Assembly: GCA_016183565.1 (NCBI GenBank)
Contig: JACPEJ010000001.1
Coordinates: forward strand, 114,257 to 178,256
Reading direction: 5' to 3'
From: Candidatus Blackburnbacteria bacterium
Lineage (GTDB): Bacteria > Patescibacteriota > Microgenomatia > UBA8517 > UBA10165
Length of the DNA: 64,000 nucleotides
The notes under the pieces were generated by a model. It did no database searches and had not been told where the DNA came from. It saw only the letters and a list, made by a program, of their open reading frames with translations. Position numbers and translations under genes: made by a program. This document shows, one piece after another, positions 8,137 to 20,827 of this stretch (positions are counted from its first letter, which is position 1; every line of letters starts with the position of its first letter).

Positions 8137-8367
8137 TTAGGTTAGTCGTTTATTTCTAAAGGCAAAGCCGGAGCTTGATTTTAGGTATTTTTCAAAAGAA
8201 AGTGCTTTTAGTTTTGAATTGAAAGCACAATAGAACATAAGCTCTTTAGCTGTTTCCGTATGAACAACCAATCCTTTAAAGTGAGTTTTGATGCGTTGTT
8301 TTAGATTAGAAGAAAACCCTGTGTAGTAAGTTCCGTCACTGAGTTGGAGAATATAAACGTAATACAC
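8137..8367 (-). CDS. GIY-YIG nuclease family protein (small UPF0213-like)
   Basis: MYYVYILQLSDGTYYTGFSSNLKQRIKTH carries the GIY-(10)-YIG motif. Confidence 0.8.
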   Translation of the reverse strand: MYYVYILQLSDGTYYTGFSSNLKQRIKTHFKGLVVHTETAKELMFYCAFNSKLKALSFEKYLKSSSGFAFRNKRLT

Positions 8368-8557
8368 AAAACCAGTTTAGCAAAAATGTCCCACGTCGCG
8401 TGAAGCTATGCGGGACACCACACTATTTTTGCTTCTTGGTGCCGCGAAGCCTAGTAGAAAGTAGATAAAAATGCCCCACTACGCATAAAGCTTCGTTAGG
8501 GCACACTTCATGCGGTGGCTGCGCCACGCGAAGCCCCGCTGAATGCGGGGCGAAGTG

Positions 8558-8917
8558 TGGAGATGGAGGGATTTGAACCCTCATCCGGAAAAACACGATT
8601 GAACGCCTCTACAAGCTTAGTTTATTGATAAATTGTCGCAAAACATCCTCAATAGACAAAAGTAATAGTTTTGCCAAGATCAAAACTTAAATCAAAGCTG
8701 ATCAAACTTTGATCGCATCCTATATTTCGGTTTACACCCGTGTAATGCCGTTAGGAGAGCAAGGCACAGATGCCAGCTTTAAGCAGCGTATGCGTACTCA
8801 AAAGCTGGGGCGTAGGTTTTATCCTCGCCGTTTAAAGTTTTAACCCTGTTTAACGAGTATGAGTCGAACTCGGCCTGCAGCGTGTCAAAGTGCTCTTTCG
8901 TCGAAACCTGTCATCCC
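8558..8917 (-). ncRNA. ssrA: tmRNA (ssrA)
   Basis: Reverse complement starts GGGGATGACAGGTTTCGACG...GCAGGCCGAG...CTCGTTAAACAGG, matching the canonical tmRNA 5' region. It ends with the T-arm GAGGGTTCAAATCCCTC plus acceptor CATCTCC-A, which pairs with the 5' GGGGATG including a G3:U70 pair. Internal tag reading frame GGC GAG GAT AAA ACC TAC GCC CCA GCT TTT GAG TAC GCA TAC GCT GCT TAA. Sits immediately downstream of smpB. CCA is not encoded. Confidence 0.8.
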
Positions 8918-8947
8918 CGTGTCGAAATTTATTCTACAAGTTTTGGT

Positions 8948-9403
8948 TCAAGAGTTTTTAAGTTCGCGCTCTACGTCACGCTCTATATCTTTGCGGCGTT
9001 TAGCTTCGCGCTTTTCGTATTCTCTTTTGCCTTTGGCCAAGGCTATTTTAGCTTTGACCAGACGTCCTCTAGTATATAATGAAATAGGCACTAAAGTCAA
9101 GTGCTCCTGATGAGTTTTTGTGCCTAGGGAAATAATTTCCTCTTTGTGCAAAAGTAGTTTTCTTGTGCGCAGCGGGTCATACTCGGCATTAGTTGTACCT
9201 CCGTACTGAGGAATGTTTGCACCCACAAGCCAAGCTTCGCTGTTTCGAATACGCACAAAGGAACTCGTAAGGTCACCTCTTCCATCTTTTATGGATTTGA
9301 CCTCAAAACCGATGAGTGCAATTCCTGCTTCAAAGATATCGATTATTTTATAGTCTCGCTTTGCTCTTCTGTTGGTCAATTTCATATAACAAGTATATCT
9401 CAC
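8948..9403 (-). CDS. smpB: SsrA-binding protein SmpB
   Basis: 151 aa with SmpB-typical KDGRGDLTSSFVRIRNSEAWLVGANIPQY and a basic C-terminal tail. Confidence 0.9.
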   Translation of the reverse strand: MRYTCYMKLTNRRAKRDYKIIDIFEAGIALIGFEVKSIKDGRGDLTSSFVRIRNSEAWLVGANIPQYGGTTNAEYDPLRTRKLLLHKEEIISLGTKTHQEHLTLVPISLYTRGRLVKAKIALAKGKREYEKREAKRRKDIERDVERELKNS

Positions 9404-9454
9404 TCTTGCTTTTTGTTAAAATTTCTTAAGTTTGAAGTAGTAAACTTTAACTGA

Positions 9455-10150
9455 GTGTCAATTCTTGATTTTCTTTTTCCGAGACGCTGTGTTGGGTGTG
9501 GTGAAAGCGGAGTGTATTTTTGTTCTGGTTGCAGGGGTTTGGCGAAATCCCATTTTCCTCAGATTTGTCCGGTGTGTGAGAGGGGATCTATTGATGGGTT
9601 GAAACACAAATGGTGTTATAAGTCCTATACTCCTGAGGGTTTGATTGTGATGTGGAAGTATGAAGGAGCCCCTCGGAAACTAATTGCGCAGATTAAATAT
9701 GAGTACGTTTCAGATTTGGCAAGTGAGTTGGGAGAAGAACTGGCAGGGTTTTTGAAAGGATACGAGAGAAGTAGTTTGGGGTGTCCTCTTTGGGCGAAGG
9801 ACAAGTTTTTAGTTGTTCCAATACCCTTACACTGGAAGCGTAAAAACTGGCGAGGGTTTAACCATACGGAGGAGGTAGCAAGGGTTTTGGGTTCTAATAT
9901 GGGCTGGCAAGTTGAGAACCTTCTTGAGCGCGCAAGACCAACAAAGACCCAAGTTGGTTTGAAAGGAAAAGAGAGGAGAAAGAATATTCAAGGTGTTTTT
10001 GGGCTTTCTCCGGGTGCACTTGCTTTCCGGGATTTTGAGATCCTTCTTTTTGATGATGTTTGGACTACAGGATCGACAGTGCTTGAGGCAACAAGGGTTT
10101 TGAAAGAGGCTGGGTTTAGGAGAGTTTGGTGTTTGACTTTGGCAAGGTAA
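9455..10150 (+). CDS. comF: ComF family phosphoribosyltransferase (competence protein ComFC-like)
   Basis: N-terminal Cys4 zinc finger (CVGCG...CSGC...CPVC), C-terminal PRTase motif LLFDDVWTTGSTV. Confidence 0.85.
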   Translation: MSILDFLFPRRCVGCGESGVYFCSGCRGLAKSHFPQICPVCERGSIDGLKHKWCYKSYTPEGLIVMWKYEGAPRKLIAQIKYEYVSDLASELGEELAGFLKGYERSSLGCPLWAKDKFLVVPIPLHWKRKNWRGFNHTEEVARVLGSNMGWQVENLLERARPTKTQVGLKGKERRKNIQGVFGLSPGALAFRDFEILLFDDVWTTGSTVLEATRVLKEAGFRRVWCLTLAR

Positions 10151-10207
10151 AAGACAGAGACACCATGGACGATGTCAGATAAGGAAAATATTAGCCGCAT
10201 GGTGGGG

Positions 10208-10504
10208 TTAGGACATGTTCCAGTAAAAGGAAACTTGGATATGGGAGTTAATGTCCACAATCTCGGCTTCGCGAGGAGAAATTAGAATAAATATAGCTCT
10301 ATACTTTCGGTTTACCCTGAACGAGTAGATTTTTAATGCTTTTGGCTCAAGCCTTTCTGTGTGTAAAGAAGGATATCGTGGATTGTCTTTAAATAAGGAT
10401 AGTTGCTTATTAAACTTATTTTGTAGATTATGACGCTTGAGAAACTTTTGTAAATTTTCCCTTAGTGGTTTAACGTCCATATGATGAAGATTTGGATAAA
10501 CCAC
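10208..10504 (-). CDS. Type II toxin, RelE/ParE superfamily
   Basis: KIYSFRVNRKYRAIFILISPREAEIVDINSH core, and overlaps an upstream RHH antitoxin gene. Confidence 0.6.
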   Translation of the reverse strand: MVYPNLHHMDVKPLRENLQKFLKRHNLQNKFNKQLSLFKDNPRYPSLHTERLEPKALKIYSFRVNRKYRAIFILISPREAEIVDINSHIQVSFYWNMS

Positions 10505-10748
10505 TGATCAGGCTGTCAATAAACTTCTCGCTGTATTTGCCTGTCTTTGCCAGTTCGAGCCTTACTTCTTGGAGTGGGCGAGGCGTATATGTTTCAAATA
10601 GCACCTCTTCAGCGAAATGTTTTCTTAGTAGACTTCTAACAAACTCAGATCTTGTTGCAAAGCCCTGTTTTCTTGCCTCGGAGTCAACCTTTTTCGCTAC
10701 TTGGGTTGGTAGAGAGATGGTTACTGTAGCCATATGAATATTTAACAA
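10470..10748 (-). CDS. Ribbon-helix-helix (CopG/ParD-like) antitoxin
   Basis: N-terminal MATVTISLPTQVAKKVDSEARKQGFATRSEFVRSLLR is an RHH motif; overlaps the toxin start. Confidence 0.6.
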   Translation of the reverse strand: MLNIHMATVTISLPTQVAKKVDSEARKQGFATRSEFVRSLLRKHFAEEVLFETYTPRPLQEVRLELAKTGKYSEKFIDSLISGLSKSSSYGR

Positions 10749-10924
10749 TATTTATGAACTTTTATCAATGGCTAATTTGGTGTTTGACTTTGGCAAGGTA
10801 GTTGGCAGTGTCTGTTTGAAAATATCCGAATGGAACTGGCTGGGCAAGGTGGGTGGAACTCCCCCTTCTGGTTGATTATATTGGAACCTACTTTCAAAGA
10901 AAATAATTAGTCTTTCTTTTCTTG

Positions 10925-11158
10925 CTATTTTCTTTTCTTCAAAAGTTTTAAGAACTCATTAGTTGTTATATCGGCTTGTTTCAAAATTGCCCTTAAGGTA
11001 CCAGTTCTTACTGGACGGTTATGTCTAGGAACTACCGTGCGTCTTCCGTCTGAGTGTTTGAAAACCACATGGCTCCCTTTACCCGGTCTGGAAACAAAAT
11101 CTAATTGGAAAAGCACTCTTTCGATATTGCGTGGTCTGATTTGGGGCAATCTTGACAT
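10925..11158 (-). CDS. hicA: HicA toxin (mRNA interferase)
   Basis: 77 aa with LKLLKK...GFVFVSRPGKGSHVVFKHSDGRRTVVPRH...GTLRAILKQA, typical of HicA/YcfA. Confidence 0.85.
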   Translation of the reverse strand: MSRLPQIRPRNIERVLFQLDFVSRPGKGSHVVFKHSDGRRTVVPRHNRPVRTGTLRAILKQADITTNEFLKLLKKRK

Positions 11159-11167
11159 GTTGAAATC

Positions 11168-11440
11168 TCATGCAAAACGCAGAGAAAGTGGAGCCGTAAC
11201 CTGAGTCGTAGTAACAATATCTTGTTGGGTATGATCGACAGGTACAAGTTGCTTATCTTCAGCCAAACTATCTATATAAACTTGAATGGCTCCTTTTACG
11301 TTCTTAAGCGCTTCTTCAACAGTATCTCCGTCATCAGCTACACCAAGAGTGGGACAAAGTGCAGTAAAACCTGCTTTACCTGTTCCGGTTTGAGTGTCAG
11401 GACTAATAATAATACGGTAGTTTAAAACTTTTGTTCTCAT
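11168..11440 (-). CDS. hicB: HicB antitoxin (UPF0150 family)
   Basis: 90 aa with YRIIISPDTQTGTGKAGFTALCPTLGVADDGDTVEEALKNVKGAIQVYI, upstream of hicA. Confidence 0.8.
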   Translation of the reverse strand: MRTKVLNYRIIISPDTQTGTGKAGFTALCPTLGVADDGDTVEEALKNVKGAIQVYIDSLAEDKQLVPVDHTQQDIVTTTQVTAPLSLRFA

Positions 11441-11594
11441 AGTATCTTGAGTATATTACAGATAGCAAAATAAGACAAGCTTGTTTCTTCGAAATAAAGC
11501 AAAATATGAGTCAAGCGAAGTGCAACAAGCGAACCGAACATATTTTTCTTTCTTTGCCCTACGAAGCCTCAGCGAAGTATTGGGCGGCAAATTT

Positions 11595-12198
11595 TTAATA
11601 CCAAATTGTTTTTGTTCTGTGATACGGTTTGTCGTCCGGCGACTTAACTTGTCCTTTGAACCAAAATATTCCGTCAACTTTCGCCGCGTTAGCTTGTGGA
11701 AACTTTTCTTTCAAAATTTTTGTAGCAAGTTCTATCGCCCAAATTGTATTTGCGCGAATTTCTATTTCTTCGTCGCTACCGCTTGGAATTTCAATTTTGT
11801 TATCAATTTTATTGGTAAGCTCGTCTGTGTATTTCAATATCCCAAATTTTCTAAGTAATTGCGGGACTTTGAGAAATTTTTGACGGCTTAAAATCCAAAT
11901 CTCTACGAGTAGGTTGTTTGCCTTTGTGTTGCCAGATATTGAGTATATTCTCAAACAATTCCTCGTCCGAATAATTGATAGTATTTCCGCCTTGCAGTCC
12001 TGCTTTCGAAAGAGCTTTGTTCCAAGTTCCAAACCGCCTCAAAATAGTCGAGGGGTCATATTTACCGTCATTCTCAATATAAGTTTTCATTGAAAGCTTT
12101 TTTTGTGCAATCTTTCCCGACACTAAACGGACATCGTTTAGTAAGTCATCAGATGAAACAGGATTATTTTTTGGTGGTGTATATTGAAAGTTATTCAT
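11595..12198 (-). pseudogene. Frameshifted remnant of a protein with homing-endonuclease-associated repeats (HNH_repeat-like: ...ST I LRRFGTWNKAL SKAGL...)
   Basis: Two overlapping ORFs in different frames (11851..12198 and 11595..12032) share the repeat signature RRFGTWNKALSKAGL / KFGILKYTDEL, consistent with one gene broken by a frameshift. Confidence 0.4.
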
Positions 12199-12291
12199 AA
12201 AATTATTTCATTAAATCATCAATTGAAACGCCAAGTGCTTTGGCGATTTTCGCCATTATGTAAACGGTTGGCTTATTAAAAATGTTTTAAC

Positions 12292-12552
12292 TTACCCTCC
12301 ATTTTTAAGGTATCTTCTTAGCATCCCTTTTATTGTTTTTCTCCCATAACCACTTTTAAGATATTCCTCTCTATTTTTGGCATCAATTCTGTTGATAAAA
12401 GCTTCATAGAAGATTAATTTATATGGTCTAAACGGTTTTGTTGCTAAACTCTTTCCATTATTGTGTTCTTTAAATCTTTTCTTTAGGTTTGCAGTATAAC
12501 CTATGTATAAACTATTATTTTTTAAACTCTGCAGAATGTAAACGTAATTCAT
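12292..12552 (-). CDS. GIY-YIG nuclease family protein (second copy)
   Basis: MNYVYILQSLKNNSLYIGYTANLKKRFKEHN carries the GIY-YIG motif. Confidence 0.8.
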   Translation of the reverse strand: MNYVYILQSLKNNSLYIGYTANLKKRFKEHNNGKSLATKPFRPYKLIFYEAFINRIDAKNREEYLKSGYGRKTIKGMLRRYLKNGG

Positions 12553-12626
12553 TGGCGTGACGTAATAAATTCTGCGAATTTAAGCGTCACAGCAACGTTT
12601 AAATTGCTTTGCAATTTATTACGTTG

Positions 12627-12713
12627 CGGTGGGAGTGGGATTCGAACCCACGATACCTTGCGGTATACGGCTTTTCCAAAACCGCGCACTAGGCCAAACT
12701 ATGCGATCCCACC
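12627..12713 (-). tRNA. tRNA-Ser (anticodon GGA), class II with long variable arm
   Basis: Reverse complement GGTGGGATCGCATAGTTTGGCCTAGTGCGCGGTTTTGGAAAAGCCG...GTGGGTTCGAATCCCACTCCCACCG. Anticodon loop TTGGAAA. CCA is not encoded. Confidence 0.8.
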
Positions 12714-12718
12714 TTGTG

Positions 12719-12790
12719 CGCACCCACCCAGAATCGAACTGGGATCAGTTGCTCCGCAAGCAACTACTCTATCCGTTAAGCTATGGGTGC
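12719..12790 (-). tRNA. tRNA-Arg, anticodon read as GCG (unusual and should be verified)
   Basis: Reverse complement GCACCCATAGCTTAACGGATAGAGTAGTTGCTTGCGGAGCAACTGATCCCAGTTCGATTCTGGGTGGGTGCG. Anticodon stem GTTGC/GCAAC, loop TTGCGGA. The D-arm resembles bacterial tRNA-Arg. Confidence 0.65.
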
Positions 12791-12817
12791 AGGAATTTTT
12801 AGGAGATTTTTACGTTG

Positions 12818-12901
12818 CGGAGGGTACAGGATTCGAACCTGTGAGGGCTTGCGCCCACAAGTTTTCAAAACTTGCGCCATGAACCTCTCGGCCAACCCTC
12901 C
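12818..12901 (-). tRNA. tRNA-Ser (anticodon TGA)
   Basis: Reverse complement GGAGGGTTGGCCGAGAGGTTCATGGCGCAAGTTTTGAAAACTTGTGGGCGCAAGCCCTCACAGGTTCGAATCCTGTACCCTCCG. Anticodon loop TTTGAAA, long variable arm. Confidence 0.8.
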
Positions 12902-12906
12902 TAGGG

Positions 12907-12991
12907 CGGTGGAGGTGGGATTCGAACCCACGTGCCCCTTGCGGAGCGAGGCTTAGCAAGCCCCTGCCATCGGCCACTAGGCGACTCCACC
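12907..12991 (-). tRNA. tRNA-Ser (anticodon GCT)
   Basis: Reverse complement GGTGGAGTCGCCTAGTGGCCGATGGCAGGGGCTTGCTAAGCCTCGCTCCGCAAGGGGCACGTGGGTTCGAATCCCACCTCCACCG. Anticodon loop TTGCTAA, long variable arm. Confidence 0.8.
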
Positions 12992-13046
12992 TTACGCTTA
13001 GATTATATCAGATTTTGTGGTATAATTATACTCAGCACGAGACTAT

Positions 13047-13565
13047 ATGGATTCACCAGAGAATGCCCAATCCAGTGCTGGTAGTCGTTCTTTGACAAAG
13101 GAACTTTTTTCTTGGAAAGCGCCGGTTCGGCCGTTCAAGAGGCGTAATAAAGAATTTTTCACTACGGTTTTGGCGATTGCTCTTTTACTGTCAATAATCT
13201 TTTTTACGATTAGTGGCATAATGCCTGTGATTGTTATCTTCTCTCTTGTTTTTTTGGTGTATATTCTTTCTACGATTTCACCTGAGGAGGTTGAGCACAA
13301 AATAACGAACAAGGGTGTTGTGTTTGCAGGTAAGCAGTATTATTGGACGGATCTTTTGCGGTTTTGGTTTGTTGAGAGGTTTGGGAGTAGTCTTTTGGTT
13401 CTTGAAACCACAAAACTTCCTGGTCGTTTGGAGATGGTGGTTGATCCTCAAGAGAAAGAGAAAATTAAGGGGTTATTGGTTGGCCATATTGATCTTGAAG
13501 AAGCTGCGCCAAGTTTTATGGATAAAACAGCGGCTTGGTTGTCAAGAAGAGTTCCTTTAGATTAA
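13047..13565 (+). CDS. Hypothetical membrane protein (two TM plus a possible PH-like C-domain)
   Basis: 172-aa ORF with hydrophobic helices at 40-85; architecture similar to 5428..6066. Confidence 0.4.
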   Translation: MDSPENAQSSAGSRSLTKELFSWKAPVRPFKRRNKEFFTTVLAIALLLSIIFFTISGIMPVIVIFSLVFLVYILSTISPEEVEHKITNKGVVFAGKQYYWTDLLRFWFVERFGSSLLVLETTKLPGRLEMVVDPQEKEKIKGLLVGHIDLEEAAPSFMDKTAAWLSRRVPLD

Positions 13566-13577
13566 ATTTGGTAAGTT

Positions 13578-13651
13578 GCACCCGTAGCTCAGTTGGATAG
13601 AGCGTGGGATTCCGGATCCCAAGGTCGGTGGTTCAAATCCACCTGGGTGCG
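13578..13651 (+). tRNA. tRNA-Arg (anticodon CCG)
   Basis: GCACCCGTAGCTCAGTTGGATAGAGCGTGGGATTCCGGATCCCAAGGTCGGTGGTTCAAATCCACCTGGGTGCG. Anticodon arm TGGGA-TTCCGGA-TCCCA. Confidence 0.85.
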
Positions 13652-13693
13652 CAAGAATTTAAAATTACTGCTGCCCTAAAAAAAGGTGCAGAT

Positions 13694-14128
13694 ATGAGTG
13701 AACAACTGGTAGCTGGAGCTACTGTTTATAGAAAAAGGAATGGTTCACCTCCTCTTTGGCTTGTTATTAAAAATGAACAAGATGGGGACTGGGAACTACC
13801 TAAGGGGTTAGTTCGACGCGGAGAATCCTCTGTTGGTTCTATCTTGAGAATTTTGCGTGAAGAGGGGGGTATGGTTGTTGAGATTATAGAAGAAGCAGGT
13901 CGTGCTACTGCTTCTAGAACTAAAAATGGCAGTAGGTCAACAGATAAAATTATTTTTTACCTGAGCGAGATGCATTCTAGTCTTTTTTCAGAGTCTATTT
14001 ATTATACTCAGGAAAAATGGCTAGCTTACAGTCGAGCTAAAAAGGCTTTAGGGTTGGAGAGAGAGAAGAGAATTTTGAAACAGGCAAATGATACCCTTAA
14101 AGAATGCCTTAAGAAAAGAAAAAACTGA
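13694..14128 (+). CDS. NUDIX hydrolase
   Basis: Nudix box GLVRRGESSVGSILRILREEGG. Start taken at the MSEQLV methionine, because the ORF-track start (13604) overlaps tRNA-Arg. My manual base counting around 13690 was off by one, so the start coordinate is good to about 1 nt. Confidence 0.75.
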   Translation: MSEQLVAGATVYRKRNGSPPLWLVIKNEQDGDWELPKGLVRRGESSVGSILRILREEGGMVVEIIEEAGRATASRTKNGSRSTDKIIFYLSEMHSSLFSESIYYTQEKWLAYSRAKKALGLEREKRILKQANDTLKECLKKRKN

Positions 14129-14144
14129 TACGCAAATTCTCTAA

Positions 14145-14234
14145 GGTGGGATGTCAGAGTGGTTTATTGGCCAGGTCTCGAAAACCTTGGAGGGAGTAAT
14201 CCCTACGGAGGTTCAAATCCTCCTCCCACCGCCA
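14145..14234 (+). tRNA. tRNA-Ser (anticodon CGA), CCA encoded
   Basis: GGTGGGATGTCAGAGTGGTTTATTGGCCAGGTCTCGAAAACCTTGGAGGGAGTAATCCCTACGGAGGTTCAAATCCTCCTCCCACCGCCA. Anticodon loop CTCGAAA with a C27:U43 mismatch at the top of the stem; long variable arm. Confidence 0.75.
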
Positions 14235-14395
14235 ATTTTCAGAATTCGGATTTTGGGCGATTGTTGCCTCGCCCGCCCGTGTGCATACAACAGATTTACC
14301 CCTTTATTTTGCTTGCCGAGTTTATAATAATTTAGTATCATTGTAGTAAGGATTGGGACTTAATCTCATAGTATAACCTTATAACAATCATACAA

Positions 14396-14471
14396 CTCGT
14401 TTCAAAACTCGTAGATTAGTCTTATTAAATTTTTTGAAACGAGATTGGAGAAGCTGTTTTGAAACAGCTTC
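14396..14471. promoter_or_regulatory. Operator-like inverted repeats (C-box-like) upstream of the R-M operon
   Basis: ctcgtttcaaaa (14396-14407) faces ttttgaaacgag (14432-14443). A 22-bp palindrome gaagctgttttgaaacagcttc sits at 14450-14471. All three share a tttgaaac core. Confidence 0.5.
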
Positions 14472-14663
14472 ATAAAGAAAGCCCGAAACAAAAAGGGCGT
14501 TTCGCAGGATAGGTTGTCAAAAATAATTGAATCGGGAACAATTCAAAATCCGACTATTGACACCCTATCAAAAATCGCCAATGCATTAGATGCCAAGGTG
14601 GACGATTTAATCAAAAAACAATATGAGTCAAGTAGCAACATTATTTTCAAAAACAAAAATTGA
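14463..14663 (+). pseudogene. Start-less remnant of an XRE-family HTH controller (C) protein
   Basis: Frame translation NSFIKKARNKKGVSQDRLSKIIESGTIQNPTIDTLSKIANALDAKVDDLIKKQYESSSN shows a Cro/C1-type HTH but there is no ATG/GTG start after the in-frame TGA. The 3' end overlaps the M1 start by 41 nt. Confidence 0.5.
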
Positions 14664-15891
14664 CTATTCGTGGTCTTTTTCTGATAAAACTAGAAAAGAC
14701 ACCGCTTATATTACTCACGGATACCACCGCTACCCTGCAAAATTTATTCCTCAAATAGTTTCTCGTTTAGCGGAAAAATATACCAAAGACGGAGATTTAA
14801 TTGTTGATCCTTTTGGTGGTTGCGGAACAACGCTTGTTGAATCAAAAGTAATGGGAAGGCCGTCAGTTGGTGTTGATATAAACCCGGTAGCTGTTTTAAT
14901 TACAAAAGCAAAAATTACTCCAATTGATCCTCAAAAAATCGAGAAAGCATTTACCGTACTAAAAGCAAAACTGGGCACATACAACAAAGATACAAAAGTA
15001 AAAGCACCCGAGCATGAAAGAATTGATTACTGGTTTAAGCCCGAAGAGAAAAGAAAACTTGCTTTTATCTTTGCTGAAATTTCAAAATTGAAAGACCAAG
15101 ATATCAAAGATTTTTTCTTTTGCGGGTTTTCTAATATTTTGAAAAATTGCTCTATTTGGCTACAAAAAAGCAATAAGCCGACAAGAGATTTTGAAAAACA
15201 GCCATCAGAGCCAATGAAAACTTTTGCAAAACAAATAAAAATGATGTTAAGGGGCAATGCCCGATTATTTCAGTTGTTATCAGAAAAAGGTTATTTAAAA
15301 GTTTCAAGTAAAGTAGTTTGCACGGACGCAAGAACAATTCCCGCTAAAGATAACAGCGTTAGTTTGATAGTCACATCACCACCCTATGTTACCTCTTACG
15401 AATACGCTGATTTACACCAATTAACTGCTTTGTGGTTGGAATATACAAAAGATTTAAGTGGTTTTCGTAAAAGATTTATTGGTACTTCTTGTCACAGCAA
15501 AAAAGATTTAGTTTTTAATAGCGAACTTGCCGAAAAAATAAGGAACGAATTATTGAAAAAAGATAGGAAAACCGCCGAGGAAGTTTCGACATATTTTAGC
15601 GAAATGAATCAAGTTTTTATTGAAATGAAAAGAATGTTAAAAAAGGATGGAAAAACTTGTATTGTTATCGGCAATACCAACTTAAAAGGAGTTGAGATAT
15701 TAAATGCCGAAGTTTTTGCCGAGCAACTACAGAACTTAGGATTGAAAATCGCTGATATTATTAAAAGAGAAATCCCGTCAAAAAATTTGCCGTCTGTCAG
15801 AGATGAAAAAACAGGTAAGTTTGCGAGAATAAGTGATAAAAATAAAGTGTCAGCTTATCCAACGGAATATATTTTAATAATGGAAAAATAA
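14623..15891 (+). CDS. DNA methyltransferase (N6-adenine/N4-cytosine amino-MTase family; FxGxG motif I before SPPY motif IV)
   Basis: YPAKFIPQIV...GDLIVDPFGGCGTT (AdoMet motif X/I) near the N-terminus and LIVTSPPYVTSYEY (motif IV) around residue 250; 422 aa. Confidence 0.75.
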   Translation: MSQVATLFSKTKIDYSWSFSDKTRKDTAYITHGYHRYPAKFIPQIVSRLAEKYTKDGDLIVDPFGGCGTTLVESKVMGRPSVGVDINPVAVLITKAKITPIDPQKIEKAFTVLKAKLGTYNKDTKVKAPEHERIDYWFKPEEKRKLAFIFAEISKLKDQDIKDFFFCGFSNILKNCSIWLQKSNKPTRDFEKQPSEPMKTFAKQIKMMLRGNARLFQLLSEKGYLKVSSKVVCTDARTIPAKDNSVSLIVTSPPYVTSYEYADLHQLTALWLEYTKDLSGFRKRFIGTSCHSKKDLVFNSELAEKIRNELLKKDRKTAEEVSTYFSEMNQVFIEMKRMLKKDGKTCIVIGNTNLKGVEILNAEVFAEQLQNLGLKIADIIKREIPSKNLPSVRDEKTGKFARISDKNKVSAYPTEYILIMEK

Positions 15892-15927
15892 GCAAAGCTT
15901 GTTTTTCGCTTCGTTCAAAATAAAACT

Positions 15928-16596
15928 ATGACTATAAACGACCTTATCAAAATTTACGAGACAAAAAAGAAAAAATATGGCGTACAAGCATATCGCCATA
16001 TTTCAAATGTTTTGAAAGAAGCAAAGGCACAACATAAAAAAGATTTTTCAGGTGATGACCACGAGCAATCTTGGCGGGCTTTTAAGGGTAAGAATTTGGA
16101 GAAAATGATTGAGTATATTATTACCGATGAAGTCCGTGCTTTAGGGTTGCAGGTTGTAAACGGAAATAGTTTAGAGCGAACGAATGGCACAAACTTGTCT
16201 AGAGAATTAAGTTTAGTAAAGAGAAATTTGATTGTTGATTATGGCGAGTTTGGTTCGCATTTGCCTGATGTTGATTTGATAATTTATGACCCAAAAATGA
16301 GCAAAGTCGTTGCCGTTCTATCAAGCAAAGTAACTTTGCGAGAAAGAATCGCCCAAACTGGTTATTGGAAAATAAAACTTGCTTCCGACGAAGCGACAAA
16401 ACATATCAAGGTTTATTTCGTAACACCAGATGAAGACGGAACGCTAACTATTAAAAAACCAGCGAAAAAAGGACGAGCAATTGTTGAAGTAGACACAGAC
16501 GGCAGTTATGTTTTAAGCGAGACGGATATAGAGGAGAGCGACAAAGTTAAAATGTTTGATAAATTTATTGATGACCTTAAAAAATTACTCAAATAA
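15928..16596 (+). CDS. Candidate Type II restriction endonuclease (R subunit), inferred mainly from position between the two MTases
   Basis: 222-aa protein with no MTase or HTH motifs and a possible PD-(D/E)XK-like segment PDVDLIIYD...VVAVLSSKVTLRER, sandwiched between M1 and M2 on the same strand. Confidence 0.45.
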   Translation: MTINDLIKIYETKKKKYGVQAYRHISNVLKEAKAQHKKDFSGDDHEQSWRAFKGKNLEKMIEYIITDEVRALGLQVVNGNSLERTNGTNLSRELSLVKRNLIVDYGEFGSHLPDVDLIIYDPKMSKVVAVLSSKVTLRERIAQTGYWKIKLASDEATKHIKVYFVTPDEDGTLTIKKPAKKGRAIVEVDTDGSYVLSETDIEESDKVKMFDKFIDDLKKLLK

Positions 16597-16843
16597 TGTG
16601 ACAAAATCGCAAATACAATTGGCGTGGGGAAAAGTTATTAAAGAAACTCGTAAGATTCCCGATTGGAATACGCTTAAAAAAGATTCAAAACAATATCAAA
16701 AAGTTGTCACTCTTAGAGAGCTTATTTTGTTTTGTCAAGTGCTTTTAGGGAAGATAGAAATTGGTGAAAATGTTGCTTTTAATGAAATAATTTATAAAAA
16801 GACTATAAAATTTTATTGTGAGCAGATGAAAGAATATGTCTAA
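16556..16843 (+). CDS. Small ORF between the R and M2 genes (hypothetical; overlaps both neighbours)
   Basis: 95-aa ORF with start inside the R gene 3' end and stop 8 nt into M2. No recognisable domain. Confidence 0.25.
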   Translation: MINLLMTLKNYSNNVTKSQIQLAWGKVIKETRKIPDWNTLKKDSKQYQKVVTLRELILFCQVLLGKIEIGENVAFNEIIYKKTIKFYCEQMKEYV

Positions 16844-17522
16844 AGATTTGATTTTGGAATCAACAACTCTGTGGGATTATCCAACGCAAAATTATGGTGA
16901 TAAGCCACACGGAAACAATAAATATAATGGCGTAACACCTGCTTTTGTTCTTTGGAATTTGCTACAAAGATACACAAAAGAAGGCGATTTAGTTGTCGAT
17001 CCGATGTGCGGAAGCGGAACAACAATTGATGTTGCCAAAGAATTAAACCGAAAAGTAATCGGCTATGATTTAAACATTGTTCGCCCAGATGTTACCAAAA
17101 ATGACTCTCGAAAAATCCCACTTAAAGATAATTCTGTTGATTTTGTTTTTATTGATTCGCCATACTCGGACAATATCAAATATTCTGACGATGAAAAATG
17201 TATCGGCAAAATTTCTTGCGAAAAACCAGAATTTTATGACGAGTTAGAAAAAACCGCTTCAGAAATTGCAAGAATTTTGAAGCTCGGCAAAGTCATGGGT
17301 TGGGTTATTGCCGACCAATGGATTAAAAAGAAATTTACAGCAGTTGGATTTTTGCTTTGGCAAAGATTGGAAAAATATTTTGAGCCAATGGATATTGTTT
17401 GTTTAACAAGACATAACCAAACATCAAACACTGGTGTTTGGCATAACAGAGCGAGGCAGTTCAATTTTTATTTGAGAGGTTTTAAGTATTTGTTTATAAT
17501 GAAGAAATCCGAAAAGAATTAG
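16836..17522 (+). CDS. Second DNA methyltransferase (small amino-MTase; DPMCGSGTT motif I and DSPY motif IV)
   Basis: PAFVLWNLLQRYTKEGDLVVDPMCGSGTT then VDFVFIDSPYSD; 228 aa. Confidence 0.7.
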   Translation: MSKDLILESTTLWDYPTQNYGDKPHGNNKYNGVTPAFVLWNLLQRYTKEGDLVVDPMCGSGTTIDVAKELNRKVIGYDLNIVRPDVTKNDSRKIPLKDNSVDFVFIDSPYSDNIKYSDDEKCIGKISCEKPEFYDELEKTASEIARILKLGKVMGWVIADQWIKKKFTAVGFLLWQRLEKYFEPMDIVCLTRHNQTSNTGVWHNRARQFNFYLRGFKYLFIMKKSEKN

Positions 17523-17702
17523 GCGGCGCGCCAGCTTTGCTAGCACGAAAAATTGCGGTGGTGAAAAAAGGAGCGGCGAAAGCGAGGGCGAGGCGGAGCG
17601 TCAAAATGCACAATCTGGATTTTCGTCAAAAAAAGTTCGGATTTTAACCAAAAGGTACCGCAAAAAGGATTTTGCAATCGCGAGTGGAGTTGTTTTTAAC
17701 CC

Positions 17703-17740
17703 TTGACAGGCTGTAATAATTCTGTAATAATTGTTATATA
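17703..17740 (+). promoter_or_regulatory. Consensus-like promoter (TTGACA 17703-17708, -10 near 17726-17738) overlapped by a tandem 11-bp direct repeat ctgtaataatt x2 (17711-17732); putative Phd/RelE operator
   Basis: Read directly. The repeats lie between the -35 element and the phd ATG at 17740, leaving little or no leader. Confidence 0.5.
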
Positions 17741-18018
17741 TGGCACAATTAATTGCTAATGAAGATTTTACCAGCATCCAGAAAGCACAGGCAGGCTTAA
17801 CCAGGGTTTTTAAAAAAGCCGAAAAACGTGGAAAATTTGTTAGGGTGATGAGGAATAATGAGCCTGTGGGAGTACTAGTGCCCAATCGGGTTTGGGAGTC
17901 CTTTTTAGAAGATTTAGAGGCCCTTTCTTCTGAGAATTATTTAAAAAGGATTGCCAAATCAAGAGCAGATAAAAAAACTTACTCTATGGAGGAAGTTAAA
18001 AAGAGATTGGGTGTCTAA
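17740..18018 (+). CDS. Phd/YefM family antitoxin
   Basis: MAQLIANEDFTSIQKAQAGLTRVFKKAEKRGKFVRVMRNNEPVGVLVP; stop overlaps the relE start (ATGTAA-type coupling at 18018). Confidence 0.75.
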   Translation: MAQLIANEDFTSIQKAQAGLTRVFKKAEKRGKFVRVMRNNEPVGVLVPNRVWESFLEDLEALSSENYLKRIAKSRADKKTYSMEEVKKRLGV

Positions 18019-18278
18019 TGTACCAGATTAAGTTTAAGGCTTCAGCAGACAAAAGATTTTCTAAGTTCCCCAGAGATGTTCAGATAAGAGTTATACAAAA
18101 ATTAGAGTTCTTTTTATCTCAATCGGACCCTTTGATTTACGCAGAAATGTTAACAAACCCTAGAATTGGTACATATCGTTTTAGGGTTGGTGATTATCGC
18201 GTAGTTTTTGATTTGGAAGATGATGAGACTATTGTGATTGTGGATATTGATCATAGGAAAAATATTTATCGGCGATGA
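18018..18278 (+). CDS. RelE/ParE family toxin
   Basis: GTYRFRVGDYRVVFDLEDDETIVIVDIDHRKNIY. Confidence 0.8.
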   Translation: MYQIKFKASADKRFSKFPRDVQIRVIQKLEFFLSQSDPLIYAEMLTNPRIGTYRFRVGDYRVVFDLEDDETIVIVDIDHRKNIYRR

Positions 18279-18353
18279 AAAGAGAATTTTCTGCAGGTGG
18301 ATTTGTATATACTTAATATTATGTCAAATTTACGAAGACACTTTGTATAAAGA

Positions 18354-20774: not shown

Positions 20775-20827
20775 TTTTAAGTGCTAGTTGAGCTTGGATT
20801 GAGGTAACTGGTATCATATACAGACCA

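What the first reader, a model, noticed from the sequence alone, without database searches (positions are those of the whole stretch)
8137..18300. About 10-kb mobile/defence island inserted between ssrA and a tRNA-rich segment
Several accessory-type genes are crowded between the smpB-ssrA pair and dnaG, in a region also holding seven tRNA genes. They are two GIY-YIG nucleases, a decayed homing-endonuclease-like locus, RelE/RHH, HicAB and Phd/RelE toxin-antitoxin pairs, a NUDIX hydrolase, a two-methylase R-M operon, and an HD phosphohydrolase. tmRNA and tRNA genes are preferred integration targets. The island has no integrase, which suggests an old, eroded insertion or accretion by homing/illegitimate events.
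Basis: inference. Interest (0 to 1): 0.5.

Follow-up and report, generated by a model that had tools for sequence, protein, structure and literature searches.

The report
Core tRNA neighbourhood with piecemeal selfish inserts
This is not one 10-kb island: it is a conserved housekeeping gene neighbourhood of a tiny groundwater bacterium that picked up several small selfish modules separately, the largest a 3.4-kb restriction-modification cassette that entered at a serine tRNA gene and later lost its integrase.

Summary
The listed genes are real, with six tRNAs plus tmRNA rather than seven tRNAs. The single-island reading fails.

**Conserved backbone.** Relatives (ComF 49-58% identical) keep smpB-ssrA-comF, the Ser/Arg tRNA cluster, a membrane protein, NUDIX and dnaG-rpoD in the same order. 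The GIY-YIG gene 3' of ssrA recurs there in several relatives, 83-87% identical in two.

**Accessory DNA.** It sits in two variable slots:
- comF to the tRNAs: a RelE/RHH cassette bracketed by an exact 25-nt repeat, HicAB, and a frameshifted HNH_repeat/Q_salvage remnant.
- tRNA-Ser(cga) to dnaG: the R-M element, Phd/ParE and HD.

**The R-M element.** Only the R-M block is compositionally foreign. It is a discrete element, 14235-17663, that starts right after the tRNA-Ser CCA end. It retains the last ~21 codons of a large serine recombinase (LSR) gene and a decayed controller gene.

Intact relatives carry this recombinase, with its 3' end abutting or overlapping the 3' end of a tRNA gene. The family has more than 460 metagenome loci. 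Its endonuclease is 91-98% identical in the 80 loci examined, although host markers are only 28-47% identical. It also has a swap-in slot for other defence genes between R and M2.

**Verdict:** partly supported; moderately interesting.

The parts
8137..8367 (-). GIY1: a 76-aa stand-alone GIY-YIG protein immediately 3' of ssrA. It is a conserved neighbour, not an insert.
   Evidence: Pfam GIY-YIG E 8e-13. It is 83-87% aa identical to the gene in the same slot in L021 and L022, where SmpB is 54-61% and ComF 49-55% identical. The DNA alignment shows many synonymous changes. The same smpB-tmRNA-GIY order occurs in L104 and L106.
8555..9403 (-). ssrA (tmRNA, 8555-8918) and smpB (8948-9403): core genes.
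   Evidence: ARAGORN and Rfam, 139 bits. Pfam SmpB E 2e-48. Present in all relatives examined.
9455..10150 (+). comF-like phosphoribosyltransferase: core gene. Its last 25 nt form the first copy of the direct repeat.
   Evidence: Pfam DZR_2 and Pribosyltran. 784 homologues, named ComF family by NCBI. Syntenic in L019-L022.
10125..10800 (-). RelE(YoeB-like)/RHH toxin-antitoxin cassette (genes 10208-10504 and 10470-10748), bracketed by an exact 25-nt direct repeat TTTGGTGTTTGACTTTGGCAAGGTA at 10125-10149 and 10776-10800.
   Evidence: Repeat found. The longest exact repeat in 200 shuffles had mean 13.8 and maximum 19 nt. Pfam and PDB matches. A terminator-like hairpin lies at 10176-10159. The cassette is absent from relatives.
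10925..11440 (-). HicB (11168-11440) / HicA (10925-11158) toxin-antitoxin pair: accessory.
   Evidence: Pfam HicA E 4e-16, HicB_lk E 5e-5. Not found in this slot in relatives. L021 has a 44-46% homologous pair at a different locus.
11595..12198 (-). Decayed locus: two HNH_repeat units with a frameshift in the second, fused to the C-terminal third of a Q_salvage gene. No nuclease domain.
   Evidence: Pfam HNH_repeat E 1e-15; Q_salvage profile positions 188-285 of 285, E 2e-22. Three-frame translations. Absent from relatives.
12292..12552 (-). GIY2: an 86-aa stand-alone GIY-YIG protein 3' of tRNA-Ser(gga), with a 71% homologue inside the tRNA cluster of one relative (L022).
   Evidence: Pfam E 3e-17. 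71% identical to L022 11980-12240, which lies inside that genome's tRNA cluster.
12626..14234 (.). Core segment. It holds tRNA-Ser(gga), Arg(gcg), Ser(tga) and Ser(gct) on the - strand; a 172-aa membrane protein at 13047-13565(+); tRNA-Arg(ccg) at 13578-13652(+); NUDIX at 13694-14128(+); and tRNA-Ser(cga) at 14145-14234(+).
   Evidence: ARAGORN and Rfam. The same tRNA set, membrane protein (56-60% id) and NUDIX (36-45% id) lie upstream of dnaG in L020, L022/L023 and L002.
14235..17663 (+). R-M integrative element, 3,429 bp, inserted at the 3' CCA end of tRNA-Ser(cga). An imperfect 8-nt repeat marks the ends: CACCGCCA (14227-14234) and TACCGCAA (17656-17663).
   Evidence: The end motifs each occur once in the window, with 0 expected. 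blastn homology to 80 metagenome loci spans about 14264-17590 plus the end pieces. The block is a k-mer outlier with GC 0.33-0.36. It is absent from the nearest relatives.
14211..14273 (-). Remnant of the large serine recombinase gene (last ~21 codons, ...GEATIAQNPNSENW...) reading into the tRNA.
   Evidence: tblastn with the L028 recombinase, residues 495-515, 86% identity, E 8e-6. Translation shown. Full-length recombinases end in the same way against tRNA-Asp, Ser(tga), Ser(gct) and Ala in L028, L043, L081 and L079.
14463..14622 (+). Controller (C) protein pseudogene (HTH_XRE type). The start is lost, 11 codons of the helix-turn-helix are deleted, and the stop is lost.
   Evidence: Comparison with the intact 71-aa ORF in L027, L035, L036, L048, L063 and L088.
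14623..15891 (+). M1 DNA methyltransferase (422 aa).
   Evidence: Pfam N6_N4_Mtase E 9e-23. PADLOC MTase_II E 8e-62. 75-94% aa identical in nearly all 80 loci (L098 only 54%).
15928..16596 (+). BsaWI-family type II restriction endonuclease (222 aa).
   Evidence: Pfam RE_BsaWI E 3e-33. 3976 homologues, the best 120 clusters at 88-95% identity. 91-98% identical in the 80 loci.
16597..16835 (+). Variable cargo slot of the element. Here it holds orf95 (ORF 16556-16843), of unknown function.
   Evidence: No Pfam, NCBIfam or PADLOC hit. Among 72 loci the slot is empty in 27, orf95-sized in 17, and holds a 0.43-2.3 kb insert in 28; the inserts examined encode mostly defence-type genes.
16836..17522 (+). 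M2 DNA methyltransferase (228 aa).
   Evidence: Pfam N6_N4_Mtase E 3e-21. PADLOC MTase_II. 84-97% identical in the 80 loci.
17523..17663 (+). Right-end non-coding arm of the element: RE2 at about 17545-17590, and RE at 17601-17663 ending in a mimic of a tRNA 3' end.
   Evidence: An independent assembly (L001) breaks at 17631, inside RE.
17731..18278 (+). Phd (17731-18018) / ParE-RelE (18018-18278) toxin-antitoxin pair: accessory and separate from the R-M element.
   Evidence: Pfam E 3e-8 and 2e-9. A promoter-like site lies at 17703-17731. Absent from relatives and from the other R-M loci.
18354..18947 (+). HD-domain phosphohydrolase (YfbR-like), with typical composition. It is not found at this position in relatives, so its status is uncertain.
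   Evidence: Pfam HD_3 E 1e-19. GC 0.40. No tblastn hit in L002 or L019-L022.
18999..21910 (+). dnaG and rpoD: the core right-hand anchor.
   Evidence: Pfam. DnaG is 53% and RpoD 83% identical in L020 and L022.

Best explanation
**Organism and backbone**
The window comes from a Candidatus Blackburnbacteria genome (Microgenomates group, CPR/Patescibacteria). The interval 8.1-18.3 kb is a vertically inherited core neighbourhood, in this order:
1. smpB
2. ssrA
3. a small GIY-YIG gene
4. comF
5. a small GIY-YIG gene
6. the Ser/Arg tRNA cluster
7. a membrane protein
8. NUDIX
9. dnaG-rpoD

**Two variable slots**
The neighbourhood has two intergenic slots that vary between relatives. Each has been filled piecemeal by small self-stabilising modules.
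- Slot A (comF 3' end to the tRNA cluster) received a 0.65-kb RelE/RHH cassette flanked by a 25-nt duplication of the end of comF. It also received HicAB and a now-decayed HNH_repeat/Q_salvage fragment.
- Slot B (tRNA-Ser(cga) to dnaG) received a restriction-modification element, a Phd/ParE pair, and perhaps the HD gene.

**History of the R-M element**
The shown steps are the defined ends, the recombinase remnant and the family-wide architecture. The inferred steps are the order of events and the recombinase activity.
1. An element of about 5-6 kb carried a large serine recombinase, a controller protein, M1, R, a cargo slot and M2.
2. It integrated at the 3' end of tRNA-Ser(cga).
3. A deletion removed the recombinase gene except its last ~21 codons. 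The junction lies between two TTGCCYCGCCC-like microhomologies.
4. The controller gene decayed.
5. M1, R and M2 stayed intact, presumably held by post-segregational killing and/or defence benefit.

The copy in this window is therefore immobilised.
For: **Synteny**
- Four lineages (L019-L023) keep the backbone.
- The comF-to-dnaG distance is 3.5-4.7 kb in those lineages, against 8.85 kb here.
- The same six Ser/Arg tRNA isoacceptors are found in the same place.
- tblastn identities: membrane protein 56-60%, NUDIX 36-45%, GIY1 83-87%, GIY2 71%.
- None of the TA genes, R-M genes, the HD gene or the Q_salvage/HNH_repeat fragment has a hit at this position in the relatives; only HicAB has a distant (44-46%) pair elsewhere in L021.

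**Composition**
- Only 14.0-18.5 kb deviates, with z up to 3.5.
- The R-M genes have GC 0.33-0.36 against a background of 0.404 +/- 0.036.

**Ends of the R-M element**
- The left-end motif starts at 14235, directly after the tRNA CCA. The right-end motif is at 17636-17663. Each is unique in the window.

**Recombinase**
- Pfam finds Resolvase + Recombinase + Zn_ribbon_recom in ORFs next to the R-M operon in L028, L063, L088 and L081; L036 keeps only the last two domains.
- Thirteen loci have such a recombinase gene or fragment, and the window has a C-terminal remnant.
- The 3' end of the recombinase gene overlaps a tRNA 3' end by ~25 nt in L028, L043, L081 and L079.

**Horizontal transfer**
- The endonuclease is 97% aa identical, 94% nt identical and 88% identical at 4-fold sites to L027/L028, whose SmpB is only 43% identical.
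- Host markers on R-M contigs are 28-47% identical, while R-M proteins are 86-98% identical.

**Controller pseudogene:**

**TA cassette**
- The exact 25-nt repeat exceeds every one of 200 shuffles, whose maximum was 19 nt.
Against: - Only 64 kb of the genome was available, so a recombinase acting in trans cannot be excluded, and mobility of this copy is untested.
- The repeat at the element's ends is short and imperfect (6 of 8 nt).
- The relation between the left-end, right-end and RE2 pieces is complex in other loci: inverted copies, closed right-end/left-end junctions, and 38-nt mini-units. This is not fully explained by a simple attP x attB model.
- R-M copies also sit next to tRNA-Ser in the equivalent neighbourhood of several other Microgenomates-like contigs (L048, L094, L102). 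Some vertical inheritance inside sub-lineages is therefore possible.
- The relatives are 49-58% identical in ComF, so the timing of the TA and HD gains is coarse.
- The mechanism that produced the 25-nt repeat is unknown.
Confidence: 0.8

Rival explanations
1. One reading: a single ~10-kb mobile/defence island was acquired in one event at ssrA or a tRNA and then lost its integrase.
For: Many accessory-type Pfam families sit within 10 kb. No intact integrase is present. tmRNA and tRNA genes are classical integration targets (established knowledge).
Against: The backbone genes inside the interval (comF, six tRNAs, membrane protein, NUDIX) are syntenic in all informative relatives, and the GIY-YIG genes in some. 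The composition of 8-14 kb is typical. No repeat of the ssrA or tRNA 3' end brackets the interval. The insertions have their own separate boundaries.
Confidence: 0.03
2. The R-M operon is an old, vertically inherited resident of the tRNA-Ser/dnaG neighbourhood in Microgenomates. It is kept extremely conserved by selection and was simply lost in the relatives sampled.
For: R-M copies lie next to tRNA-Ser in equivalent contexts in L048, L094 and L102. The most distant copies are near saturation at 4-fold sites (0.40-0.45 identity) yet 91% aa identical, which shows strong purifying selection over a long time.
Against: The copies closest to the window's (88% identity at 4-fold sites) sit in a host whose SmpB is only 43% identical and are attached to a different tRNA, Asp. 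The nearest core-gene relatives lack the operon. The k-mer composition is foreign. A recombinase remnant and element ends are present. Source annotations place homologues in Nomura-, Kaiserbacteria and non-CPR bins.
Confidence: 0.08
3. The R-M cassette reached this genome not through its own recombinase but by homologous recombination or transformation. An already recombinase-less copy from a related donor was swapped in, using the conserved tRNA and flanking genes as arms.
For: Recombinase-less copies with other deletion junctions exist (L035, L037, L048), so loss is recurrent. comF and other competence-type genes are present. Cargo in the R|M2 slot appears to be exchanged by recombination between conserved flanks.
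Against: The element begins exactly at the tRNA CCA end with the recombinase 3' end in the canonical geometry. This is what in-situ integration followed by deletion predicts. No donor with the same junction was found among the 80 loci.
Confidence: 0.12
4. The small GIY-YIG genes are mobile homing-type nucleases that target the 3' flanks of tRNA and tmRNA genes. This would explain their position next to tRNA-Ser and ssrA.
For: Every GIY-YIG gene seen lies directly 3' of a tRNA-Ser or tmRNA on the same strand: two in the window, one each in L020 and L021, two in L022, and one each in L104 and L106. The distribution is patchy: absent after ssrA in L019 (an HNH gene is there instead) and in L020.
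Against: GIY1 orthologues occupy the same slot, with abundant synonymous divergence and 83-87% protein identity. This indicates purifying selection on a vertically inherited gene. There are 862 homologues, mostly in Microgenomates, at 60-70% identity and a uniform 78 aa. They have no DNA-binding extension, intron, intein or flanking repeats.
Confidence: 0.1

Closest known systems
Integrative elements mobilised by large serine recombinases, such as SCCmec (ccrAB, at the 3' end of rlmH/orfX), Tn4451/TnpX and phiC31/A118-type prophages
   Same: Relatives of the element encode a Resolvase + Recombinase + Zn-ribbon recombinase adjacent to one end. They integrate site-specifically at the 3' end of a conserved gene and carry accessory cargo. 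Recombinase-less 'pseudo' derivatives exist, as with pseudo-SCC elements.
   Different: The target is the 3' end of tRNA genes (Ser, Asp, Ala, Pro), with the recombinase ORF reading into the tRNA. The cargo is a fixed R-M operon. The copy in this window has only a 21-codon recombinase remnant. No activity has been tested.
tRNA/tmRNA-integrated genomic islands with tyrosine integrases
   Same: The element inserts at a tRNA 3' end, has a short repeat of the tRNA end at its far boundary, has foreign composition, and shows erosion after integration.
   Different: The integrase family is serine, not tyrosine. The element is 3.4 kb, not 10 kb. ssrA is not used. Most of the claimed island is core DNA.
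Mobile restriction-modification units (R-M systems as selfish mobile elements; Kobayashi and co-workers' concept, cited from my own knowledge)
   Same: The R-M operon behaves as a self-contained transferable unit with defined flanking repeats. Its phylogeny is incongruent with the host, and it persists after loss of its mobility genes.
   Different: The scale and conservation are unusual: more than 460 metagenome loci and about 4000 proteins, with the best 120 clusters 88-95% identical. There are two methyltransferases with an internal cargo slot, and the link is to a serine recombinase.
BsaWI / CCGG-family type IIP restriction endonucleases (Pfam PF18643)
   Same: The C-terminal 104 residues match the RE_BsaWI catalytic domain at E 3e-33. 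NCBI names homologues 'BsaWI family type II restriction enzyme'.
   Different: No sequence match to any PDB chain. Not recognised by PADLOC REase models. The recognition site is unknown, and CCGG is not depleted in the 64-kb window. The enzyme is paired with two methyltransferases.
Defence genes embedded inside R-M operons (the prr locus, with PrrC inside a type Ic R-M operon; Campylobacter 'rlo' R-M-linked ORFs; cited from my own knowledge)
   Same: A variable gene is embedded between conserved R-M genes and is co-oriented with them. In relatives the slot holds OLD, AriA/AbiL-like, Z1 helicase, PDC-S45 protease, MBL and HNH genes.
   Different: This is a type II rather than type I scaffold. 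In the window the slot holds only an uncharacterised 95-aa ORF. A functional link between cargo and R-M is untested.
Type II toxin-antitoxin modules (RelE/YoeB-RHH, HicAB, Phd-ParE/RelE)
   Same: Each is a pair of adjacent small genes with the expected domains, in variable genomic slots. TA pairs also occupy the same slot in relatives: PIN-Phd in L022 and PIN in L021.
   Different: The RelE/RHH pair forms a 626-bp cassette between exact 25-nt direct repeats that regenerate the end of comF. No recombinase accounts for this arrangement.

Membership tests
Single horizontally acquired genomic island | Absent as one block from related genomes, so that the flanks are adjacent there | tested here: not met
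   Relatives keep comF, the Ser/Arg tRNAs, the membrane protein and NUDIX between smpB-ssrA and dnaG (some also the GIY-YIG genes). Only the TA, R-M, HD and Q_salvage pieces are missing.
Single horizontally acquired genomic island | Atypical composition across the island | tested here: not met
   The tetranucleotide distance z is within +/-0.7 for 8-14 kb. Only 14.0-18.5 kb is an outlier, with z up to 3.5.
Single horizontally acquired genomic island | An integrase at one end, and direct repeats of the target at both ends | tested here: not met
   No repeat of the ssrA or tRNA ends brackets 8137-18300. The only integrase trace is internal, at 14211-14273.
Integrative element mobilised by a large serine recombinase | Encodes a recombinase with Resolvase + Recombinase + Zn_ribbon_recom domains | tested here: not met
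   The window has only the last ~21 codons (tblastn 86%, E 8e-6). The feature is met in related elements L028, L063, L081 and L088, and partly in L036.
Integrative element mobilised by a large serine recombinase | Defined element ends abutting a specific conserved target | tested here: met
   The LE motif starts at 14235, right after the tRNA-Ser CCA. The RE motif ends at 17663 with a mimic of a tRNA 3' end. The same LE follows tRNA-Asp in L028 and tRNA-Ser(tga) in L043.
Integrative element mobilised by a large serine recombinase | Recombinase-dependent integration and excision | not testable with these tools
   This needs an attP x attB assay, or read-level junction evidence.
Type II restriction-modification system | A restriction endonuclease with a recognised catalytic domain | tested here: met
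   PF18643 RE_BsaWI, E 3e-33, 114.6 bits against a cutoff of 26.2. The ORF is full length relative to all homologues.
Type II restriction-modification system | Adjacent intact cognate DNA methyltransferase(s) | tested here: met
   M1 and M2 match PF01555 and PADLOC MTase_II at E 8e-62 and 2e-29.
Type II restriction-modification system | A controller (C) protein, in C-regulated systems | tested here: not met
   The HTH_XRE ORF is intact in relatives. In the window its start is lost, 11 codons are deleted and its stop is lost.
Type II restriction-modification system | A defined recognition site, with cleavage and methylation activity | not testable with these tools
   Palindrome avoidance in 64 kb gave no signal.
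Type II toxin-antitoxin systems | An adjacent small toxin gene and antitoxin gene with family domains | tested here: met
   RHH_1 with a HigB/ParE-like toxin that matches YoeB in PDB. HicA with a HicB-like antitoxin. PhdYeFM with ParE_toxin. Two of the six matches are below the Pfam cut-offs.
Homing endonuclease gene | A nuclease domain joined to a DNA-binding module in one intact ORF | tested here: not met
   11851-12198 has only HNH_repeat units and a frameshift, with no nuclease domain. GIY1 and GIY2 are bare 76-86-aa GIY-YIG domains.
Homing endonuclease gene | Sporadic, horizontally spreading distribution | tested here: not met
   This was tested for GIY1. Its orthologues are in the same slot, with synonymous divergence, across the Microgenomates lineages L021, L022, L104 and L106.
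Defence island (statistical clustering of defence genes) | Several bona fide defence systems co-located more than expected by chance | tested here: inconclusive
   There is one R-M system plus three TA pairs in 8 kb. PADLOC recognises only the methyltransferases. No enrichment test is possible on one window.

The most novel reading that the evidence does not exclude
The 3.4-kb block is a decayed copy of a very large family of integrative R-M elements. I found no description of this family in the searchable literature. Its members are found in CPR bacteria and, by source annotation, possibly beyond.

Features of the family:
- A large serine recombinase whose gene reads into the 3' end of tRNA genes.
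- An ultra-conserved C-M1-R-M2 scaffold. The endonuclease is 91-98% identical in the 80 loci examined (best 120 protein clusters 88-95%).
- A precise swap-in slot between R and M2 that shuttles other anti-phage genes: OLD, AriA/AbiL-like, Z1 helicase, PDC-S45, MBL, HNH and Schlafen-like.

Current defence-system models miss the endonuclease, so surveys would score these loci as orphan methylases.
Probability: 0.55. Interest if true: 0.6.

Novelty: new variant of a known kind. Interest (0 to 1): 0.42.

Why it matters
**For the finding as given:** an apparent 'defence island' in a streamlined CPR genome is a conserved core neighbourhood with two recurrent insertion slots. This corrects the annotation of the GIY-YIG, NUDIX and tRNA genes from accessory to core.

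**Beyond the window:** the R-M element gives a concrete, testable example of how integrase-less accessory DNA arises in CPR genomes. A serine-recombinase element integrates at a tRNA gene and then loses its recombinase.

It also points to a widespread, highly conserved R-M scaffold that appears to act as a carrier for other defence genes. CPR bacteria largely lack CRISPR and are thought to rely on R-M, so such a vehicle would be relevant to how they acquire immunity. The tRNA-targeting serine recombinases could also interest genome engineers.

Tried and rejected
- **Genome-collection scan with DnaG.** It found only distant relatives (47% identity or less) with little upstream DNA. Synteny was obtained instead from ComF homologues and their contigs.
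- **Strain variants.** I looked for variants lacking the TA cassette or the R-M block. All seven Logan contigs are 100% (one 99.9%) identical to the window. One of them breaks at 17631, inside the right-end repeat.
- **Viral and plasmid origin of the endonuclease.** No hit in IMG/VR or PLSDB.
- **PDB sequence search with the endonuclease.** No hit.
- **Inferring the recognition site from palindrome avoidance.** No signal in 64 kb, and CCGG is not depleted.
- **Hairpins after ssrA (GTGGGRCATTTT).** These looked like a dispersed repeat, but there are only two copies, both downstream of ssrA. I read them as tandem terminator-like hairpins.
- **The 172-182-aa 'ORFs' upstream of M1 in related loci.** I considered them as a recombination directionality factor. 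I rejected them as spurious, because they match the non-coding RE/RE2 repeats on both strands.
- **GIY2 plus the HNH_repeat ORF as one split GIY-YIG homing endonuclease.** I rejected this because GIY2 has a 71% identical stand-alone orthologue without the repeat ORF.
- **The CCA of tRNA-Ser(cga) being supplied by the element.** Undecided. Orthologous tRNAs in relatives are mixed, with CCA encoded in L002 but not in L020 or L022.
- **Literature searches.** I found no description of this R-M family or of the GIY-YIG/tmRNA linkage.

Full report
**Source and gene inventory**

The window is 100% identical to Logan assemblies from groundwater-type runs. Its ComF and GIY-YIG proteins match (99-100%) proteins on a 686-kb NCBI contig of Candidatus Blackburnbacteria, in the Microgenomates group of CPR/Patescibacteria.

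| Feature | Coordinates |
|---|---|
| GIY-YIG (GIY1) | 8137-8367(-) |
| tmRNA | 8555-8918(-) |
| smpB | 8948-9403(-) |
| comF-like | 9455-10150(+) |
| RelE/YoeB-like toxin and RHH antitoxin | 10208-10748(-) |
| HicA/HicB | 10925-11440(-) |
| HNH_repeat ORF overlapping a Q_salvage C-terminal fragment | 11595-12198(-) |
| GIY-YIG (GIY2) | 12292-12552(-) |
| four tRNAs | 12626-12991(-) |
| 172-aa membrane protein | 13047-13565 |
| tRNA-Arg(ccg) | 13578-13652 |
| NUDIX | 13694-14128 |
| tRNA-Ser(cga) | 14145-14234 |
| M1 | 14623-15891 |
| BsaWI-family endonuclease | 15928-16596 |
| orf95 | 16556-16843 |
| M2 | 16836-17522 |
| Phd/ParE | 17731-18278 |
| HD | 18354-18947 |
| dnaG, rpoD | 18999-21910 |

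- There are six tRNAs plus the tmRNA, not seven tRNAs.
- HD lies beyond the stated end of 18300.
- The 'homing-endonuclease-like' locus has no nuclease domain. It is two HNH_repeat units, with a frameshift in the second, continuing in frame into the last third of a Q_salvage gene.

**Is it one island? Composition says no**

A 2-kb sliding tetranucleotide comparison with the whole window flags only 14.0-18.5 kb. The z score reaches 3.5 and GC is 0.33-0.36. The stretch 8-14 kb is unremarkable.

Per-gene GC agrees. M1, R, orf95 and M2 lie 1.3-3.6 SD below the window mean. smpB, comF, the membrane protein, HD and dnaG are average.

**Is it one island? Synteny says no**

Contigs encoding ComF homologues at 49-58% identity (L019-L023) share this order:
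1. SpoIID-like gene, bPH-like gene, DUF5657 and a ~600-aa protein
2. smpB
3. tmRNA
4. comF
5. a variable slot
6. the Ser/Arg tRNAs
7. a 183-aa membrane protein
8. NUDIX
9. a second variable slot
10. dnaG-rpoD

This rests.

- The same isoacceptors recur: Ser tga, gct, gga and cga, and Arg gcg and ccg.
- The comF-to-dnaG distance is 3.5 kb in L020 and 4.7 kb in L022, against 8.85 kb here.
- tblastn finds the membrane protein (56-60%), NUDIX (36-45%), GIY1 and GIY2 in the relatives.
- tblastn finds none of the TA genes, R-M genes, HD gene or Q_salvage/HNH_repeat fragment at this position; only HicAB has a distant (44-46%) pair, at another locus in L021.
- The variable slots of the relatives hold other small genes: HIT, PIN-Phd, a methyltransferase and another GIY-YIG. 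So these are recurrent variable slots, not a unique insertion site.

**The GIY-YIG genes are not accessory**

- GIY1 is 83% and 87% identical to the gene in the same position (3' of tmRNA, before comF) in L021 and L022. Over the same pairs SmpB is 54-61%, ComF 49-55% and RpoD about 83% identical.
- The DNA alignment shows many synonymous differences. This is purifying selection, not recent transfer.
- The family has 862 detected members, mostly in Microgenomates lineages, at a uniform ~78 aa.
- smpB-tmRNA-GIY-YIG is also found in L104 and L106.
- GIY2 has a 71% orthologue inside the tRNA cluster of L022.

In every case seen, the GIY-YIG gene lies just 3' of a tRNA-Ser or tmRNA gene on the same strand. 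I record this as an unexplained observation.

**Slot A (10150-12290)**

The RelE/RHH pair is a compact cassette with promoter-like and terminator-like sites. It lies between two exact copies of a 25-nt sequence, at 10125-10149 and 10776-10800.
- The first copy is the end of comF, including all but the last base of its stop codon.
- The second copy would terminate the same reading frame with TAG.
- In 200 Markov shuffles of the region, the longest exact repeat averaged 13.8 nt and never exceeded 19 nt.

This is direct evidence for insertion of a discrete 0.65-kb module that regenerated the end of comF. The enzyme responsible is unknown.

HicAB and the decayed HNH_repeat/Q_salvage fragment follow. 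Neither has recognisable boundaries.

**Slot B: the R-M element and its ends**

The endonuclease has about 4000 detectable homologues, and the best 120 clusters (at 90% clustering) are all 88-95% identical. More than 460 JGI metagenome loci encode it, and the 80 that were retrieved are 91-98% identical. It is absent from IMG/VR and PLSDB.

blastn of window 13-19.5 kb against those 80 loci shows homology limited to about 14264-17590, plus short end pieces.

The ends in the window:
- The left end, ATTTTCAGAATTCGGATTTTGGGCG, starts at 14235. That is the base after the CCA of tRNA-Ser(cga).
- The right end, TTCGGATTTTAACCAAAAGGTACCGCAA, occupies 17636-17663. In other loci it reads ...GGCACCGCCA, which mimics a tRNA 3' end.
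- Each motif occurs exactly once in the window, with zero expected.
- An independent assembly breaks inside the right-end motif.

**Slot B: the missing integrase**

In related loci with more flank, the gene next to the R-M operon is a large serine recombinase.
- Pfam finds Resolvase + Recombinase + Zn_ribbon_recom in ORFs of 475-517 aa in L028, L063, L088 and L081; L036 holds an N-terminally truncated 399-aa copy without the Resolvase domain.
- Thirteen loci have such a gene or a fragment of one.
- Among 22 de-duplicated loci with at least 1.2 kb upstream of M1, 7 have the recombinase and 5 others have a tRNA within 700 nt.
- Its 3' end overlaps the 3' end of a tRNA gene in convergent orientation by ~25 nt. 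The tRNAs are Asp in L028, Ser(tga) in L043, Ser(gct) in L081 and Ala in L079.
- The 'left end' motif is simply the last codons of this gene (...GEATIAQNPNSENW). The window retains them at 14211-14273(-), with 86% identity over residues 495-515 and E 8e-6.

So the element integrated at tRNA-Ser(cga) through a serine recombinase and later lost the gene. The junction GATTGTTGCC|TCGCCCGCCCGTG lies between two TTGCCYCGCCC-like sequences that are far apart in the intact forms.

Other decay and loss:
- The HTH_XRE controller gene is intact as 71 codons in L027, L035, L036, L048, L063 and L088. In the window it has lost its start, 11 codons of the helix-turn-helix and its stop.
- Other loci (L035, L037, L048) lost the recombinase at different junctions. 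Loss is therefore recurrent.

M1, R and M2 are full length.

**Horizontal origin of the R-M element**

- The window's endonuclease gene is 97% aa identical, 94% nt identical and 88% identical at 4-fold sites to L027/L028. Their host SmpB is only 43% identical, and there the element sits at tRNA-Asp.
- Host markers on R-M contigs are 28-47% identical to the window: SmpB, ComF, DnaG, NUDIX, the membrane protein and the 615-aa protein. The nearer relatives L020 and L022 lack the element.
- The most distant copies are near saturation at 4-fold sites (0.40-0.45, against about 0.28 for random) yet still 91% identical in protein. This is unusually strong purifying selection for a restriction enzyme.
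- In a 50%-clustered library the next full-length relatives are 60-63% identical. The ~90% group is thus a tight sub-family.

**A cargo slot inside the operon**

Among 72 loci with both R and M2, the R-to-M2 spacer takes three forms:

| Spacer | Loci |
|---|---|
| 1-6 nt (empty) | 27 |
| ~225-254 nt (orf95-like, as in the window) | 17 |
| 0.43-2.3 kb (larger insert) | 28 |

Among the larger inserts examined, co-oriented ORFs match these families:
- OLD nuclease
- AriA/AbiL-like ATPase
- Z1-domain helicase plus a 145-aa partner
- PADLOC candidate PDC-S45 protease (E 7e-104)
- PDC-M48B metallo-beta-lactamase plus a membrane protein
- HNH nucleases
- a Schlafen/AlbA-like protein (weak match, E 3e-4)

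Two others (a 360-aa ORF in L027 and a 332-aa ORF in L047) matched no family.

Cargo starts 2-5 nt after the R stop and replaces the first few codons of M2. Backbones at least 97% identical to the window's differ in slot content: L024 is empty, L025/L026 are orf95-like, and L027/L028 hold a 360-aa ORF.

I read this as cassette exchange by recombination between the conserved R and M2 flanks. That step is inference.

PADLOC models do not recognise the endonuclease.

**What remains open**

- The inverted RE2 copies in 13 loci, the closed RE.LE junctions in L028 and L035, and the 38-nt LE+RE mini-units in L043 are not explained by a simple attP x attB scheme.
- The origin of the 25-nt repeat is unknown.
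- The status of HD is uncertain. Its composition is typical, but it is not found at this position in relatives.
- The function of the tRNA/tmRNA-linked GIY-YIG proteins is unknown.
- No activity was or could be tested.

**Verdict**

The region is a conserved core neighbourhood with two hot slots filled piecemeal. Its one clearly foreign piece is an immobilised, recombinase-deleted member of a large tRNA-targeting R-M element family. That family is the most interesting lead.

Noticed in passing
window 8137-8367 and 12292-12552; L020 13252-13488; L021 9768-9998; L022 9730-9960 and 11980-12240; L104 3001-3237; L106 3001-3243: In most cases, small (76-86 aa) stand-alone GIY-YIG genes lie directly 3' of a tmRNA or tRNA-Ser gene on the same strand (exceptions: L102, where it precedes tRNA-Ser; L105, with no tmRNA/tRNA upstream). 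The tmRNA-linked one is as conserved as RpoD (83-87% identity) across relatives whose SmpB is only 54-61% identical. Its function is unknown, and I found no literature on the linkage.
   Followed up: partly
window 8132-9454 compared with L019, L021, L022: The smpB-ssrA-GIY-YIG unit is inverted relative to comF in the window and in L020, compared with L019, L021 and L022. The neighbourhood has therefore been rearranged without losing its linkage.
   Followed up: no
window 8380-8480 (- strand): Two tandem terminator-like hairpins ending GTGGGRCATTTTT sit between ssrA and the GIY-YIG start. The one proximal to the GIY-YIG gene is conserved, with base changes, in L021 and L022.
   Followed up: partly
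window 26867-27984: A 144-aa HsdM N-terminal fragment (type I methylase) is followed by a low-GC (0.33) DUF3800 gene. This looks like another decayed defence remnant, outside the finding.
   Followed up: no
window 28464-31148, with tRNA-Cys at 31275-31349: The strongest k-mer outlier besides the R-M block (z 3.5, GC3 0.49) is a P-type cation ATPase gene next to tRNA-Cys. It may be a separate horizontal acquisition.
   Followed up: no
window 3589-3667 and 58932/60433: There is a 41-nt exact direct repeat with 38-nt spacing at the 5' end of the SpoIID-like ORF, and a 26-nt exact repeat 1.5 kb apart near 59-60 kb.
   Followed up: no
L081 100-1623(-) and 7741-9168(+); L028 2404-2443(+) and 4127-4154(-): Some R-M elements are bracketed by two inverted serine-recombinase genes, or by inverted copies of the recombinase 3' end. 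Thirteen loci have a ~58-nt inverted copy (95-100% match) of the sequence that follows M2, placed about 420 nt upstream of M1. This suggests inversion or nested insertion, which I did not resolve.
   Followed up: partly
L043 4569-4606 and 7589-7624: 38-nt mini-units consist of the element's left-end start fused to its right-end terminus. They sit directly after a tRNA-Ser gene and after a full right end. They may be scars or miniature derivatives of the element family.
   Followed up: no
L027 4817-5131(-): An HNH_repeat ORF 47% identical to window 11851-12198 lies about 400 nt beyond the right end of the R-M element in an unrelated host.
   Followed up: no
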